Below, piece after piece: positions 21,899 to 28,132 of a stretch of 40,081 bases of DNA. The translations under genes and the position numbers were made by a program. The stretch spans positions 1-40,081 of the forward strand of contig JABHNP010000200.1 of NCBI GenBank assembly GCA_018694455.1, given 5' to 3'. The notes under the pieces were generated by a model, which was given only the letters and a program-made list of their open reading frames with translations, had not been told where the DNA came from and made no database searches. Numbering within the stretch: the stretch's first letter is position 1; each line of letters begins with the position of its first letter. Origin of the DNA: Planctomycetaceae bacterium (GTDB lineage: Bacteria; Planctomycetota; Planctomycetia; Pirellulales; UBA1268).

Positions 21899-24800
21899 AT
21901 GAAATTTTATTTACCATTAGTCCTTTGTATTCCCGCCCTTTCAGTCTCTGCCGCCGAAGTTACCGGACGATTTGTACCTCCAGCCGGAAAGGTGCTTGTC
22001 TTTGCCGGACAGGACAACATCTCTGTTGGTGGCACAGAAAAATATAGCGATGGCTACGTCGATAATATCGGTATTCCAGCAGGAATCACCCATTACGTGT
22101 ATTTCTCTGAGGGATGGACAAATGGATTTGGCCGTACCTTTGCTAGGGGCTCTGTGGCAGGGTTGAACTCTGAAGTGGAGTGGGCCGCCGGCCCGATGTG
22201 TCAAAAGTCATACATAGATTCACTGAAACTCGAAGAGTGCGTCATGCATGTTTCCATTTCAATGGAGGGTGGCGGAGAGATTAAAGTCGCCAATGGCACC
22301 TTTGATCATCTTATTGAGGAATTTGTTCAATTCATTGCCGATCATCCTGACCGTGTCTTTTTCATACGGATTGGATATGAATTTGATGGAAGTTGGAATA
22401 AATACCAACCTGAGAGTTTTAAGAAAGCATTCCGCCGCATTGTAGAATCACTTCGGAAGCGTAATCTGTCGAACTACGCAACCGTATTTGCCTCTTCAAG
22501 CACAGTGAAACCTGGACAGTTTGAAGAGTACGACCCTGGTTCGGAATATTACGACTGGATCGGATACTCGTGGTGGGGCAATGAGAAGAAGTTTGGTAAT
22601 GCAGCACCAGCTCTTGCCTATGCACGCAAACTCAGGAAGCCCGTTTTTGTTGCTGAGTCAACAGCCCGTGGCCACTATTTCGATAAGGAAGATCCGGAGA
22701 GTCTCTGGTCAGGCTGGTTTAAAGAATTCTTCCAACATATTGAGGCCAACAAAGATGTCATCAGAGCGGTCTCGTACATCAATGCGGACTGGGATGGTCA
22801 AGACATGTGGGATGGATGGGGCCAAACTCGTATCGAAACAGCTCCACTTCTTCAGCAGAGGTGGCAAGAAAAAATGGCTGAAAGTACATTTATCAATGCT
22901 TCTGACAGCCCACATAACGCGATTCGTTTCTCGGCACCGACCACTTCTCTACAAAACAAGAATTCCAGTCGGCCAAAGTATAAAAATTCGTCACTTTCAG
23001 TCACTGAGCGTGTTGAAGACCTTCTTGCTCAAATGACGCTCGAAGAAAAAATTGCACAGATATGTGGATGGTGGCATTATGACGAGAAAAAACTACGACG
23101 TGAGGGTGCCGTCTTCGCACCAGAGTTCTATGCAGAAAAATGCCCTCATGGCATTGGTGAGCTTGGTCCTCTCCATAATCTTTCGATTGAGGAGGACCTG
23201 CGTCAGTACGCGGCTGTACAGGAATATTTCAGAAATAGAACACGACTGGGAATCCCAGCGATTCTTCATGACGAGGCTGCCCATGGCTTTATGAAATTTG
23301 AGGCGAACTCGTTTCCTGCTCCTATCGGGCTGGCCTGTTCTTGGAACACCTCTCTGATTGAGAAGATTTATTCGTGTGCTGCAAAGGAAGCACGCTCACG
23401 CGGGGTGTCTCATGTATTGTCTCCAGTGGTTGACGTAGCTCGTGAACTCCGTTGGGGACGTGTTGATGAAACACTTGGTGAAGACCCTTTTCTAGTCGGC
23501 AGGCTCGGTGCTGCAATGGTGCAAGGGCTTCAGGGGTCATCAAGTGGTGAGATTGCACCGGACCATGTAGCAGCAACACTGAAACATTTCGCAGGCTACG
23601 CAGGCACCACCGGTGGACGAAATAGATCTCCGTATCCGAATGGACTTCGACATCTTTTAGACACTGAAATCCCGCCCTTCCGCCATGTTATTAACACCAC
23701 TCATCCAGCATCAATCATGGCTGCATTTAATGAAATCGAAGGACTACCATGCCATATCAATCAGTGGATGCTTCAGGATGTGCTGCGAAAACGACTTGGC
23801 TTCGAAGGCCTCCTCGTTGGGGACTACCAAGGACTCAATCTTGTACGGTGGTACCAGAAAATTGGAACGAGTGATGCCGACGTCGGCAGCATGGCACTTA
23901 AAGCGGGCCTTCAGCTCGAGCTACCAAATGCTTTCGGGTATAAGCATTTGCAAAAGCTTGTTCAGAACGGAGACGTGCAAGAGCAAGACATTGATACAGC
24001 AGTTCGGCAGATGCTTTCATTAAAATTTCGCCTGGGGCTTTTCGAAGCACCAATGAAGCTTAATGGTGACAAAGCGGAAGCACTGGCAAGCTCACAAGAA
24101 ACTAATTCACTGGCCCGTGAAGCCGCACGGCAGTCTATTGTTCTCCTCAAAAATGAGAATGATTTTTTACCCCTCCAGGTAGGCCAACACAAGAATATCG
24201 CTGTCATCGGACCGAATGCCGCCGTGTGCCGTCTCGGAAATTACTCTGGCATGCCACGTCACACAGTGTCAATCTTCGAAGGCCTACGTAACTACGTTGG
24301 AAATCAGGCAACTGTTGTCCATGCTGAGGGCTGCAAGATTGCAAACAATGACACAGGAAGCTCCTACAAAAACTGGAGATATGTCGACGAAGTAGAGTTT
24401 ACAAATGTCGAAGATAATCGCGGCCTAATCGATGAGGCAGTGTCGACGGCACAGAATGCTGATCTCGTTGTGCTCGCTCTTGGTGACAATGTCCTTCTTT
24501 CACGTGAAGCGTGGGGAGCAAATCATATTGGGGATAAAACCTCATTTGAATTGACTGCGTCCCAGCAAGAGCTTGCCTCTCAAGTAATTAGTACCGGGAA
24601 ACCCGTTGTGCTTGTGCTCAATAACGGCAAGCCTGTCGTTCTCAGTAATGCCGCGTCAAACATTCCAGCAGTTATGACACTTCATTATGCCGGCCAGCAG
24701 ACTGGGACAGCCCTTGCTGAAATACTTTTTGGTAAAGTAAATCCATCAGGGAAGTTAACACTGAGTTGGCCACGAACAGTTGGGCATATCCCTGCACATT

Positions 24801-27800: not shown

Positions 27801-28132
27801 AGGTCGGTGAATACCAGTCCTTTGCAGAACGCACCAAAAAGTTCTATGTATTCTCTCAATATTCAAAATTCATACGACCCGGCTACCGACGCGTTGAAAC
27901 GAATAGTGCTTCCGATCTTCACACATCTGCTTTTGTAAACAAAGACAATACTCGTCTCGTTGCAATTGTTATTAATGATTCAAAAAATACAATGAATCCT
28001 TCATTTCAAATTGACAGCGGATATGCACTTGTCTCAACTCATCAGACAGATAAATCGCGGAATTGTAAAAGCATACGCGCAGATGTTCTTTTGCCACCAC
28101 AATCGGTACGCACAGTTGTCTTTCAAAAATAG
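21899..28132 (+). CDS. secreted 2,077-aa multi-catalytic protein: GH-A-like module + GH3 + S1 sulfatase (iduronate-2-sulfatase-like) + GH30-like module
   Basis: The ORF-track frame is open from 21665, but the first 234 nt overlap the transporter gene. ATG 21899 gives a signal peptide, [21 protein letters not shown]. One uninterrupted frame then runs to TAG 28130-28132. Module motifs are listed under the four sub-features. Confidence 0.85.
   Translation: [2077 protein letters not shown]
21980..22930 (+). other. module 1 of the polyenzyme: (beta/alpha)8 clan GH-A-like glycosidase, family unassigned (GH26-like pattern)
   Basis: [16 protein letters not shown] (Glu codon 22379-22381), [23 protein letters not shown] (Glu codon 22655-22657) and [10 protein letters not shown] resemble the acid/base and nucleophile strands of GH26/GH5-type barrels. 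The assignment is by pattern only. Confidence 0.4.
22991..25240 (+). other. module 2 of the polyenzyme: complete GH3 (BglX-type beta-glucosidase/xylosidase) with Fn3-like end
   Basis: Motifs: [61 protein letters not shown] (Asp codon 23822-23824), [30 protein letters not shown], QLYVS...LKGF. Confidence 0.85.
25358..26745 (+). other. module 3 of the polyenzyme: S1 formylglycine sulfatase, iduronate-2-sulfatase-like
   Basis: Motifs: [34 protein letters not shown] (Cys codon 25499-25501), [47 protein letters not shown]. It is preceded by a Ser/Pro/Lys-rich linker at 25241-25357. Confidence 0.85.
26776..28129 (+). other. module 4 of the polyenzyme: GH30-like glycosidase
   Basis: Motifs: [19 protein letters not shown] (Glu codon 27215-27217), KLWMTETTG (Glu codon 27554-27556), [40 protein letters not shown]. 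Confidence 0.7.

What the first reader, a model, noticed from the sequence alone, without database searches (positions are those of the whole stretch)
21899..28132. One secreted 2,077-codon ORF fuses three glycosidase modules with a sulfatase (GH-A-like / GH3 / iduronate-2-sulfatase-like / GH30)
From ATG 21899 (signal peptide) a single frame runs 6.2 kb with no stop. Four separate catalytic modules can be placed by motif, each with plausible catalytic residues intact. Module 1 is a GH26-like TIM barrel with Glu codons 22379-22381 and 22655-22657. Module 2 is a full GH3 with nucleophile Asp at 23822-23824. Module 3 is an S1 sulfatase whose N-terminus ([11 protein letters not shown]...AVCGASR) resembles iduronate-2-sulfatase, with Cys at 25499-25501. 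Module 4 is a GH30-like domain with Glu codons 27215-27217 and 27554-27556. The GH3 and sulfatase modules are joined by a Ser/Pro/Lys-rich linker (25241-25357). In known sulfated-glycan degradation loci, sulfatases and glycosidases are normally separate polypeptides acting in sequence. I do not recall a described architecture that covalently joins a desulfation step to three glycosidase steps. It would imply substrate channelling on a sulfated polysaccharide.
Basis: partly seen in the sequence, partly recalled or inferred. Interest (0 to 1): 0.8.

Follow-up and report, generated by a model that had tools for sequence, protein, structure and literature searches.

The report
Four-enzyme fusion for sulfated xylan
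One very long secreted protein of an uncultured marine planctomycete joins three sugar-cutting enzymes and a sulfate-removing enzyme; the fusion is real and conserved in many open-ocean bacteria, it probably digests a sulfated xylose-rich algal polymer, and it is an uncharacterised elaboration of a known kind of enzyme fusion.

Summary
ORF 21899-28132 (+) encodes 2,077 aa with a signal peptide and four catalytic modules. They are GH26 (beta-1,3 / mixed-linkage xylanase clade), GH3, an S1 sulfatase and a GH30-like module. The sulfatase's nearest characterised relative is the xylose-2-sulfate sulfatase P18_S1_7 (PDB 6HHM).

They are invariant or 47/48 in 48 full-length homologues. The fusion is not an artefact: at least 47 protein clusters (52-95% identity, full coverage) carry it. 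These come from independent MAGs and single-cell genomes of marine Planctomycetota and Verrucomicrobiota. The gene usually lies in a conserved cassette of GH43 beta-xylosidase, GPH symporter and megaenzyme.

The best reading is an exported, flexibly tethered multi-enzyme. It desulfates and depolymerises a sulfated xylose-rich glycan, most likely sulfated beta-1,3/1,4-xylan, and feeds xylo-oligosaccharides to the symporter and the cytoplasmic GH43.

The novelty claim is only partly right. GH-sulfatase fusions are already known: GH78-S1_25 is characterised, and GH10-sulfatase is predicted in sulfated-xylan loci. I found no description of this four-module form, and databases give it only generic names. 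Substrate channelling is untested.

The parts
21899..21955 (+). Signal peptide (residues 1-19, [19 protein letters not shown])
   Evidence: Read directly from the sequence. All 48 full-length homologues have an equivalent hydrophobic leader. No signal-peptide predictor was available.
21956..22933 (+). Module 1: GH26, beta-1,3-xylanase / mixed-linkage xylanase clade (residues 20-345). Acid/base E161, nucleophile E253.
   Evidence: phmmer against PDB: 7xjr AlXyn26A 2e-30, 2ddx XYL4 3e-29. E253 aligns with the residue mutated in the E243A structure 7xs3. The catalytic residues E147/E243 of AlXyn26A are given in PMC10470212. Both Glu are invariant in 48 sequences.
22934..22975 (+). Short linker 1 (residues 346-359)
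   Evidence: Only 1 of 20 columns is invariant. AF2 pLDDT is below 50 at model residues 327-336, which are protein residues 348-357.
22976..25231 (+). Module 2: GH3 exo-beta-glycosidase with Fn3-like domain (residues 360-1111). Nucleophile D642.
   Evidence: Pfam GH3 N, C and Fn3-like domains. D642 aligns with D281 of the T. maritima xylosidase, seen by comparing wild type 7zb3 with the D281N mutant 8c7f. D642 is kept in 47/48 sequences. Foldseek TM 0.92 (normalised by target length) to 5z87.
25232..25357 (+). Ser/Pro/Lys-rich linker 2 (residues 1112-1153), joining the GH26-GH3 half to the S1-GH30 half
   Evidence: Sequence. 0 of 42 columns are invariant. Homologues carry insertions of 8-66 aa here.
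25358..26743 (+). Module 3: S1 formylglycine-dependent sulfatase, S1_7-like (residues 1154-1615). FGly precursor C1201 in the motif CGASR; metal ligands D1163/D1164.
   Evidence: Pfam Sulfatase and SGSH_C. PDB 6hhm 3e-91, human IDS 5e-63. 42% identity over 408 aa to 6hhm. Foldseek TM 0.87 (normalised by target length) to 6hhm. The motif residues are invariant and C1201 is kept in 47/48.
26744..26797 (+). Short linker 3 (residues 1616-1633)
   Evidence: 0 of 18 columns are invariant. AF2 pLDDT is below 50 at model residues 465-472. Homologues carry insertions of up to 34 aa after residue 1625.
26798..28132 (+). Module 4: GH30-like (clan GH-A barrel plus beta-sandwich), residues 1634-2077, plus the stop codon. 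Acid/base E1773, nucleophile E1886.
   Evidence: Pfam GH30C and GH59. PDB GH30 xylanases 1.6e-14, with the NE(S/P) and MTE motifs aligned. Foldseek TM 0.80-0.82 (normalised by target length) to GH30_8. Both Glu are invariant.
18961..20514 (+). GH43 (GH43_11-type) beta-xylosidase with no signal peptide; first gene of the conserved cassette
   Evidence: Pfam GH43 and GH43_C2. PDB 1yrz xylan beta-1,4-xylosidase 1e-171, aligned from residue 4. Syntenic in both phyla.
20518..21882 (+). GPH-family (MFS_2, YagG-like) glycoside:cation symporter. The public gene call starts at 20536.
   Evidence: Pfam MFS_2 1e-94. NCBIfam YagG subfamily 7e-143 and GPH 7e-120. Gene call. Syntenic.
28299..29159 (-). Alpha/beta-hydrolase (putative esterase); possible accessory gene
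   Evidence: Weak Pfam Peptidase_S9 and esterase hits. It recurs with the next sulfatase near the megaenzyme in Opitutia locus L010.
29232..30773 (+). Second, separate S1 sulfatase (closest to S1_15 / GalNAc-6-O-sulfatase structures); possible accessory gene
   Evidence: Pfam Sulfatase 4e-48. PDB 7oze 2e-73, 9bas S1_15A 1.5e-70. Found near the megaenzyme in L010 and L013.

Best explanation
The ORF encodes a Sec-exported, roughly 230-kDa multi-enzyme. Four independently folding catalytic modules are strung on non-conserved linkers.

Proposed action. It attacks a sulfated, xylose-rich algal glycan, most probably a sulfated beta-1,3 or mixed beta-1,3/1,4 xylan.
1. The GH26 module makes retaining endo-cuts. 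E161 is the acid/base and E253 the nucleophile.
2. The S1_7-like sulfatase removes 2-O-sulfate from xylose. It uses formylglycine made from C1201, with the metal held by D1163/D1164.
3. The GH30-like module (E1773/E1886) cleaves the unmasked or decorated backbone. It is always directly behind the sulfatase, and the pair also exists as a free secreted S1-GH30 protein.
4. The GH3 module (D642) trims non-reducing ends.
5. The resulting xylose or xylo-oligosaccharides enter through the adjacent GPH symporter and are finished by the cytoplasmic GH43 beta-xylosidase.

Why fuse the enzymes. Fusion keeps the four activities together, at fixed stoichiometry and on the same polymer chain. This is a proximity effect, not a closed channel.

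Shown: the architecture, its conservation, the catalytic residues, the nearest characterised relatives and the synteny.
Inferred: the substrate, the order of steps, the cellular location beyond export, the benefit of fusion, and formylglycine maturation by an enzyme encoded elsewhere.
For: - Module identities and catalytic residues.
- All named catalytic residues are invariant or 47/48 in 48 full-length homologues. 21-31% of module columns are invariant, against 0-5% of linker columns.
- All four nearest characterised relatives point to xylose:
  - GH26 beta-1,3-xylanase XYL4 and the mixed-linkage xylanase AlXyn26A.
  - The xylose-2-sulfate sulfatase P18_S1_7.
  - GH30_8 and GH30_10 xylanases.
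  - GH3 xylosidase/glucosidases.
- The cassette GH43 xylosidase, GPH symporter, megaenzyme is conserved in Pirellulales, Mariniblastus, Opitutia and Puniceicoccaceae loci. It contains the same toolkit as the experimentally defined Vibrio beta-1,3-xylan locus: GH26, GH3, GH43 and the MFS transporter XylT.
- Sub-architectures exist independently. S1-GH30 occurs with its own signal peptide (L019, L020). GH26-GH3 is followed by separate sulfatases and a xylose-isomerase-like gene (L082, L083).
- Pairwise distances of the four modules correlate at r = 0.80-0.91, so the fusion is inherited as a unit.
- Sulfated-xylan PULs with a GH10-sulfatase fusion, GH3, GH30 and GH43 are predicted, and their SusC/D proteins detected, in bloom Bacteroidetes.
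Against: - No biochemical data exist for any member.
- Sulfated beta-1,3 or mixed-linkage xylan from pelagic sources is not a structurally established polymer in the papers I read. The 'sulfated xylan' is itself a prediction.
- S1_7 is a polyspecific subfamily. It also contains iduronate-2-sulfatase and kappa-carrageenan 4-sulfatase, and identity to P18_S1_7 is only 42%.
- GH3 specificity is unresolved between xylosidase and glucosidase. Its general acid/base is not placed: E517 of the T. maritima enzyme aligns with invariant H876, and a nearly invariant E870 lies six residues upstream.
- The GH30-like module is only about 20% identical to characterised GH30s.
- The neighbouring separate sulfatase resembles 6-O-sulfatases, and xylose has no C6.
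- The motif is CXAXR, not CXPXR. One paper assigns this type to anaerobic sulfatase-maturating enzymes. No maturase gene was found among the window ORFs scanned.
Confidence: 0.62

Rival explanations
1. Same multi-enzyme, different substrate. It acts on a sulfated heteropolysaccharide that contains xylose-2-sulfate, rather than on a xylan backbone. Candidates are ulvan-like Rha3S-Xyl2S glycans or diatom and other microalgal xylose-, rhamnose- or fucose-containing sulfated polymers.
For: - The only characterised close relative of the sulfatase works on ulvan fragments. In that pathway GH3 and GH43 xylosidases release xylose from Xyl-Rha3S.
- In L082 and L083 a GH78 rhamnosidase sits directly upstream of the GH43, MFS, GH26-GH3 genes, and several further sulfatases follow.
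- A second sulfatase of a different subfamily and an esterase flank the window gene.
Against: - GH26 of this clade and GH30_8/_10 relatives are endo- or exo-xylanases acting on xylan backbones.
- No ulvan lyase (PL24/25/28/40) or GH78 was found among the window ORFs of at least 150 aa scanned.
- The core three-gene cassette contains only xylose-related functions.
Confidence: 0.22
2. The fusion is mainly a device for co-expression and co-export. After secretion the non-conserved linkers are cleaved and the modules act as separate enzymes, so there is no proximity or channelling benefit.
For: - Linkers are unconserved, variable in length and predicted disordered.
- The halves occur as independent secreted proteins elsewhere.
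- The AF2 model does not define the relative orientation of S1 and GH30 (pTM 0.55).
Against: - The fusion has been retained intact at 52-95% identity in two phyla, which argues for selection on linkage itself.
- No protease site or processing evidence is available.
- Variable Ser/Pro-rich linkers are equally typical of uncleaved modular CAZymes (general knowledge).
Confidence: 0.2
3. One or more modules are catalytically dead and serve as carbohydrate-binding or scaffolding domains.
For: - More distant three-module relatives (P0068, P0087: GH26-like, GH3, GH30-like, no sulfatase) have substitutions at the catalytic positions of all three modules.
- The GH3 acid/base of the window protein is not securely identified.
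Against: In the window's own family E161, E253, E1773, E1886, the G, A, S and R of the CGASR motif, and D1163/D1164 are invariant. D642 and C1201 are kept in 47 of 48 sequences.
Confidence: 0.08
4. The long ORF is an assembly chimera, or a read-through caused by a sequencing error that removed stops between adjacent genes.
For: One related contig (L081, 4.2x coverage) shows a frame change inside the linker, which splits the gene call in two.
Against: - The same uninterrupted 2,042-2,219-aa ORF occurs in at least 47 clusters from independent assemblies and in single-cell genomes AG-892-I21 and AG-919-G08.
- In L081 the sulfatase homology begins 165 nt before the called start, so that split looks like the error.
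- Base composition is uniform across the modules.
Confidence: 0.01

Closest known systems
P36 GH78-S1_25 of Formosa agariphila (ulvan pathway; sulfatase domain PDB 6HR5)
   Same: A characterised single polypeptide that joins a glycoside hydrolase to an S1 sulfatase acting on the same sugar residue of a sulfated algal polysaccharide.
   Different: It has two catalytic modules, not four. The families differ (GH78 rhamnosidase with an S1_25 rhamnose-3-sulfatase). It is from Bacteroidota, with ulvan as substrate.
'Sulfatase domain-containing GH10' of predicted sulfated-xylan PULs in North Sea Bacteroidetes (Krueger et al. 2019, PMC6794258)
   Same: A xylanase-sulfatase fusion. Its gene neighbourhood also holds GH3, GH30, GH43 and extra sulfatases, and the predicted target is sulfated xylan.
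   Different: - The xylanase is GH10 (beta-1,4), not GH26.
- Here GH3 and GH30 are fused into the same polypeptide; there they are separate genes.
- That system uses SusC/D-based PULs; here there is a GPH symporter cassette in PVC bacteria.
- Neither system has been characterised biochemically.
P18_S1_7 (FA22070, PDB 6HHM), ulvan xylose-2-sulfate sulfatase
   Same: Closest characterised relative of module 3: E 3e-91, 42% identity, TM 0.87 normalised by target length. It belongs to the same subfamily as human iduronate-2-sulfatase.
   Different: It is a stand-alone enzyme with a CAPSR motif, whereas the window family has an invariant CGASR. Reviews disagree on whether it acts endo or exo (against 78).
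Vibrio sp. EA2 beta-1,3-xylan utilisation locus (PMC12125979) and the GH26 enzymes XYL4 and AlXyn26A
   Same: The same enzyme families (GH26 xylanase, GH3 and GH43 xylosidases) plus an MFS transporter. The GH26 module shares the catalytic Glu pair.
   Different: All proteins there are separate. There is no sulfatase and no GH30. The GH3 is cytoplasmic there but exported here. That paper's survey found such loci in Bacteroidota, Pseudomonadota, Actinomycetota and Thermotogota, not in PVC phyla.
GH30_8 glucuronoxylanases (XynC, CtXyn30A) and the GH30_10 xylobiohydrolase AcXbh30A
   Same: Best structural and sequence relatives of module 4. The fold and both catalytic Glu motifs are shared.
   Different: Only about 18-22% identity. 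Module 4 belongs to a small separate clade, with 15 clusters at E below 1e-30 among 1.84 billion representatives. Its subfamily and specificity are unknown.

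Membership tests
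GH26 (beta-1,3-xylanase / mixed-linkage xylanase clade) | Significant sequence similarity to characterised GH26 xylanases | tested here: met
   phmmer against PDB: 7xjr 2.2e-30, 2ddx 2.9e-29, covering residues 26-342.
GH26 (beta-1,3-xylanase / mixed-linkage xylanase clade) | Two catalytic Glu, the acid/base on beta-4 and the nucleophile on beta-7 | tested here: met
   E253 aligns with E243 of AlXyn26A, the position changed in the E243A structure. E161 lies in the shared RIGYEF motif. Both are invariant in 48 sequences.
GH26 (beta-1,3-xylanase / mixed-linkage xylanase clade) | Match to the curated family model (Pfam PF02156 or CAZy/dbCAN GH26) | tested here: not met
   Module 1 has no Pfam or NCBIfam hit, although PF02156 is precomputed for the relative P0054. 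The dbCAN model was not available.
GH26 (beta-1,3-xylanase / mixed-linkage xylanase clade) | Endo-xylanase activity on beta-1,3 or mixed-linkage xylan | not testable with these tools
   Needs an enzyme assay.
GH3 | GH3 N-terminal barrel, C-terminal alpha/beta sandwich and Fn3-like domain, all above curated cut-offs | tested here: met
   197, 183.5 and 55.8 bits against cut-offs of 27, 31 and 25. Foldseek TM 0.85-0.92, normalised by target length.
GH3 | Catalytic nucleophile Asp | tested here: met
   D642 aligns with D281 of the T. maritima xylosidase, seen by comparing wild type with the D281N mutant. Kept in 47/48 sequences.
GH3 | General acid/base Glu | tested here: inconclusive
   E517 of the T. 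maritima enzyme aligns with invariant H876. A nearly invariant E870 lies six residues upstream.
GH3 | Beta-xylosidase rather than beta-glucosidase specificity | tested here: inconclusive
   The best NCBIfam models (xylosidase/arabinosidase 518 bits, exo-1,3/1,6-glucosidase 495 bits, BglX 490 bits) are all below their cut-offs. The best structures mix glucosidases and xylosidases.
S1 formylglycine-dependent sulfatases, subfamily S1_7 | Sulfatase fold and curated model | tested here: met
   Pfam Sulfatase 145.8 bits (cut-off 25) and SGSH_C 65.8 bits. Foldseek TM 0.87, normalised by target length, to 6hhm.
S1 formylglycine-dependent sulfatases, subfamily S1_7 | C/S-X-P/A-X-R formylglycine motif and N-terminal metal-binding Asp pair | tested here: met
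   C1201-G-A-S-R and D1163/D1164. All are invariant except C1201, which is kept in 47/48. The core motif CX[P/A]XR is described in PMC2459300.
S1 formylglycine-dependent sulfatases, subfamily S1_7 | Assignment to S1_7 by SulfAtlas HMM or phylogeny | not testable with these tools
   No SulfAtlas models were on hand. The two best structural relatives, 6hhm (labelled S1_7) and human iduronate-2-sulfatase (placed in S1_7), are both S1_7.
S1 formylglycine-dependent sulfatases, subfamily S1_7 | A maturation enzyme (FGE or anSME) present in the genome | not tested
   No such family appeared among the window ORFs scanned. The rest of the genome was not examined.
GH30 | (beta/alpha)8 barrel with an obligate side beta-sandwich | tested here: met
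   Pfam GH30C 26.3 bits (cut-off 22). Foldseek TM 0.79-0.82, normalised by target length, to XynC, CtXyn30A and 1nof.
GH30 | Catalytic Glu pair of clan GH-A (the N-E and T-E motifs) | tested here: met
   VQNE(1773)S aligns with vqnep of 4fmv. WMTE(1886)T aligns with wmtev of AcXbh30A. Both are invariant.
GH30 | Match to the curated catalytic-domain model, and assignment to a subfamily | tested here: not met
   There is no Pfam Glyco_hydro_30 hit. Instead there is a borderline GH59 hit, 30.8 bits on the isolated module and 26.8 bits on the whole protein, against a cut-off of 27. NCBIfam XynC gives 66.9 bits against a cut-off of 650. The subfamily is unresolved.

The most novel reading that the evidence does not exclude
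The conserved GH43, symporter, four-module-enzyme cassette marks a widespread sulfated beta-1,3/1,4-xylan, or a related Xyl2S-rich glycan, in the open ocean that has not been chemically described. Pelagic Planctomycetota and Verrucomicrobiota exchange the cassette horizontally. The covalent chain of endo-xylanase, exo-xylosidase, xylose-2-sulfatase and GH30 acts as a tethered disassembly line, with a measurable rate or processivity gain over free enzymes. The invariant CXAXR motif implies anSME-type maturation in aerobic plankton.
Probability: 0.2. Interest if true: 0.7.

Novelty: new variant of a known kind. Interest (0 to 1): 0.5.

Why it matters
Sulfated algal glycans are a large and poorly resolved part of the marine carbon cycle. 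'Sulfated xylan' is so far inferred mostly from gene content.

A single conserved protein that carries a xylose-2-sulfatase-like module next to three xylan-type hydrolases is a compact, testable probe for that substrate. Expressed modules could be used to detect, map and sequence the polymer in seawater or algal extracts.

It is also a natural experiment on what covalent linkage of desulfation and depolymerisation buys a free-living bacterium. The fused, half-fused and unfused forms all exist in related genomes and can be compared.

It extends beta-1,3 / mixed-linkage xylan catabolism to PVC bacteria, which a recent survey of such loci did not list.

Tried and rejected
- Assembly or frameshift artefact: rejected.
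- The L081 two-gene 'split' as a genuine fission intermediate: rejected as a probable frameshift. The sulfatase homology and its open frame begin upstream of the called start, inside the overlap, at 4.2x coverage.
- L068 to L070 (Carboxylicivirga, Saccharicrinis, Bacteroidales) as GH3-sulfatase fusions in cultured strains: checked only in L068 (Carboxylicivirga), where the matches are separate genes. L069 and L070 were not examined.
- P0068 and P0087 as 'sulfatase-less active versions': rejected, because their catalytic residues are substituted.
- Promoter and terminator scan of 18600-29400: no excess over shuffles, so uninformative.
- Literature searches for the four-module architecture, for GH26 with sulfatase, and for 'Seribacter sulfatis': nothing found. 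The library covers open-access papers only, so absence is weak evidence.
- AF2 on two halves to test domain packing: domains are confident, but without PAE the result for GH26-GH3 (pTM 0.70) cannot be interpreted. For S1-GH30 (pTM 0.55) it indicates no defined orientation.
- Pfam and NCBIfam on module 1: no hit. Identification rests on PDB sequence matches.

Full report
**1. Observation**

The window carries an uninterrupted frame from ATG 21899 to the stop at 28130-28132, 2,077 codons.

- The mechanical ORF extends upstream to TTG 21665. That stretch overlaps the preceding transporter gene, which ends at 21882.
- ATG 21899 yields a typical leader peptide, [19 protein letters not shown]. A comparable hydrophobic N-terminus is present in all 48 full-length family members.
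- The public gene call for the source contig uses the same start.
- The Ser/Pro/Lys-rich stretch lies at 25241-25357 as described.
- GC and GC3 are even across the modules and equal to the window average.

**2. Module identities**

GH3 and sulfatase. Pfam gives strong hits for GH3 (N, C and Fn3-like; residues 426-1102) and for Sulfatase plus SGSH_C (residues 1155-1608).

Module 1 (GH26).
- It has no Pfam or NCBIfam match.
- The wild-type and E243A structures of AlXyn26A are both in the PDB. Their alignments show directly that E253 of the window protein is the nucleophile position.
- The paper on AlXyn26A gives E147/E243 as acid/base and nucleophile. E161 lies in the shared RIGYEF motif.

Module 3 (sulfatase).
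- It is closest to PDB 6HHM (3e-91; 42% identity over 408 residues; Foldseek TM 0.87 normalised by target length). Human iduronate-2-sulfatase comes next (5e-63).
- 6HHM is P18_S1_7 of Formosa agariphila, a xylose-2-sulfate 2-sulfatase acting on ulvan fragments.
- Reviews differ on whether 6HHM acts endo or exo.

Module 4 (GH30-like).
- It has weak Pfam hits (GH30C, GH59).
- It has significant PDB matches to GH30 xylanases (1.6e-14), with the N-E and T-E catalytic motifs aligned.
- Its AlphaFold model superposes on GH30_8 glucuronoxylanases at TM about 0.80, normalised by target length, with about 20% identity.
- An exhaustive profile-free search of 1.84 billion representatives found only 15 clusters at E below 1e-30. 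These include stand-alone proteins of about 460-490 aa. Module 4 therefore belongs to a small, separate GH30-like clade.

Module 2 (GH3) catalytic residues.
- D642 aligns with the nucleophile D281 of the Thermotoga maritima xylosidase, seen by comparing the wild type with the D281N mutant.
- The acid/base is not placed. E517 of that enzyme aligns with an invariant His876, and a nearly invariant Glu870 lies six residues upstream.
- Whether the GH3 is a xylosidase or a glucosidase cannot be decided from the models available.

**3. The fusion is real and conserved**

- A search of 5.8 billion protein clusters returned 47 clusters that cover 98-100% of the query at 52-95% identity, with lengths of 2,042-2,219 aa. 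One further cluster, P0029, aligned over only 53% in its best BLAST segment but is full-length in MAFFT.
- These hold about 1,355 member sequences, fragments included, from NCBI, JGI, ENA and Logan assemblies.
- In one-genome-per-species contigs the full gene is found in MAGs labelled Pirellulales, Planctomycetaceae, Mariniblastus, Opitutia, Puniceicoccaceae and Verrucomicrobiales.
- It is also found in two single-cell genomes, AG-892-I21 and AG-919-G08.
- None of the full-length genome hits comes from a named cultured strain.
- The window itself is from ENA assembly ERZ27250178, contig k141_500293. Its closest relatives (86-89%) are Planctomycetota MAGs.
- Source names are generic: 'glycoside hydrolase family 3 N-terminal domain-containing protein', 'sulfatase-like hydrolase/transferase', 'beta-glucosidase'.

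A MAFFT alignment of the 48 full-length sequences shows:
- E161, E253, D1163, D1164, G1202-A-S-R1205, E1773 and E1886 are invariant. D642 and C1201 are kept in 47/48.
- 21-31% of module columns are invariant, against 0-5% of linker columns.
- Length differences between homologues sit only in the linkers and termini.
- Pairwise distances computed separately for the four modules correlate at r = 0.80-0.91, so the modules have travelled together.

**4. Context and relatives with other architectures**

The cassette in the window.
- Upstream lie a GH43_11-type beta-xylosidase without a signal peptide (18961-20514; 1e-171 to 1YRZ) and a YagG-like GPH glycoside:cation symporter (20518-21882). Both are tightly spaced with the large ORF.
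- This three-gene cassette is syntenic in planctomycete and verrucomicrobial loci alike. The cassette proteins are 57-96% identical, while the flanks differ. This is consistent with transfer of the cassette between the phyla, though that is an inference.
- Downstream are an alpha/beta-hydrolase, a second sulfatase of S1_15-like type and a conserved hypothetical protein. These recur near the gene in some loci.

Other architectures.
- In Opitutia contigs L019 and L020, S1-GH30 is a free protein with its own signal peptide.
- In two independent assemblies of one verrucomicrobial locus (L082, L083), GH26-GH3 is a free 1,175-aa protein. It sits in the same GH43, MFS context, preceded by a GH78 and followed by separate sulfatases and a xylose-isomerase-like gene.
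- One apparent two-gene split (L081) is most simply a frameshift in the linker of a low-coverage contig.
- More distant three-module relatives without the sulfatase (P0068, P0087) have lost the catalytic residues.

The four-module protein therefore looks like a fusion of two pre-existing bimodular halves at the long Ser/Pro/Lys-rich linker.

**5. Structure**

- AlphaFold2 with family alignments gives confident domains. The S1-GH30 half has mean pLDDT 85.6 and the GH26-GH3 half 84.4.
- Both short inter-module linkers have low confidence. The S1-GH30 half has a pTM of only 0.55.
- No PDB chain covers more than one module of either half.
- This favours beads on a string. PAE was not available, so packing of GH26 on GH3 (pTM 0.70) remains undecided.

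**6. Mechanism proposed**

- The protein is exported by Sec.
- C1201 is converted to formylglycine by a maturase encoded elsewhere. The invariant CGASR is a CXAXR-type motif, and one paper attributes that type to anSME rather than FGE.
- GH26 makes endo-cuts in beta-1,3 or mixed-linkage xylan, and the S1_7-like module removes xylose-2-O-sulfate.
- The GH30-like module cleaves further, and GH3 trims non-reducing ends.
- The symporter imports the products and the cytoplasmic GH43 completes hydrolysis.

The families are the same as in the experimentally dissected Vibrio beta-1,3-xylan locus (GH26, GH3, GH43, MFS), plus a sulfatase and a GH30. They also match the content of the predicted sulfated-xylan PULs of bloom-associated Bacteroidetes: a GH10-sulfatase fusion, GH3, GH30, GH43 and sulfatases.

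The substrate, the order of steps and the advantage of fusion are inferences. The main alternative substrate is an ulvan-like or other Xyl2S-containing heteroglycan.

**7. Comparison with what is known, and novelty**

- Fusing a sulfatase to a glycoside hydrolase is not new. P36 (GH78-S1_25) has been characterised and described as a multimodular CAZyme. The same combination is reported in Nonlabens ulvanivorans.
- GH10-sulfatase fusions are reported from metagenomes.
- A separate GH3-PA14-sulfatase family appeared in my search.
- What I could not find described is this combination of four catalytic modules (GH26-GH3-S1_7-like-GH30-like), its conserved cassette, or beta-1,3 / mixed-linkage xylan genes in PVC bacteria.
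- I therefore rate it a new variant of a known kind. It is real, widespread and uncharacterised, but not categorically new.

**8. Verdict**

Interest is moderate (0.5). It is a good candidate for biochemical work and a handle on the elusive marine 'sulfated xylan'.

Noticed in passing
window 30992-32542 (+); the public gene call starts at 31049: A conserved hypothetical protein of about 500 aa with no Pfam, NCBIfam or PDB sequence match. There are 35 unnamed clusters (30-99% identity), and the only taxon label given is Pirellulales. It also lies next to the megaenzyme in loci L002 and L013, so it may be an unknown component of the same pathway.
   Followed up: partly
window 28299-29159 (-) and 29232-30773 (+): A divergent pair: an alpha/beta-hydrolase (weak esterase and Peptidase_S9 hits) and an S1 sulfatase closest to S1_15 / GalNAc-6-O-sulfatase structures. 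The pair recurs about 4 kb from the megaenzyme in Opitutia locus L010. A 6-O-sulfatase does not fit a pure xylan substrate.
   Followed up: partly
window 25499-25513 (C1201-G-A-S-R): The formylglycine motif is CXAXR (Ala instead of Pro) in all 48 family members, whereas the closest structure 6HHM has CAPSR. PMC2459300 assigns CXAXR-type sulfatases to anaerobic sulfatase-maturating enzymes, which is unexpected for surface-ocean bacteria.
   Followed up: partly
window residue H876 (codon 24524-24526) and E870 (codon 24506-24508): The position of the GH3 general acid/base (E517 in the T. maritima xylosidase) is occupied by an invariant His in this family. A nearly invariant Glu lies six residues upstream.
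   Followed up: partly
P0068 and P0087: More distant three-module proteins (GH26-like, GH3, GH30-like, no sulfatase; 1,467-1,557 aa). The catalytic Glu/Asp of all three modules are substituted, so they may be pseudo-enzymes or binding proteins.
   Followed up: partly
L082 3055-21153 and L083: A verrucomicrobial locus with GH78 rhamnosidase, GH43, MFS_2, GH26-GH3 (1,175 aa), sulfatase, a XylA2-like isomerase and three more sulfatases. This is an unfused version of the system with a rhamnosidase attached.
   Followed up: partly
P0056, P0057, P0059: A separate family of proteins of about 1,300 aa that combine GH3, PA14, Sulfatase and Sulfatase_C. It is another GH3-sulfatase fusion, unrelated in order and subfamily.
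   Followed up: no
window 2041-3777, 4281-5918, 6040-7203, 7231-7779: Two GroEL (Cpn60) genes close together, followed by DnaJ and GrpE: a chaperone cluster with a duplicated chaperonin.
   Followed up: no
window 32757-33695 (+): A DUF1559 protein with an N-terminal prepilin-type methylation motif. It is typical of Planctomycetota and fits the taxonomic assignment of the window.
   Followed up: no
window 10574-13495 (-) and 13485-14879 (-): A large Met-zincin (DUF4953/DUF5117/DUF5118) protease-like gene, overlapping by 11 nt a type I phosphodiesterase / nucleotide pyrophosphatase gene.
   Followed up: no
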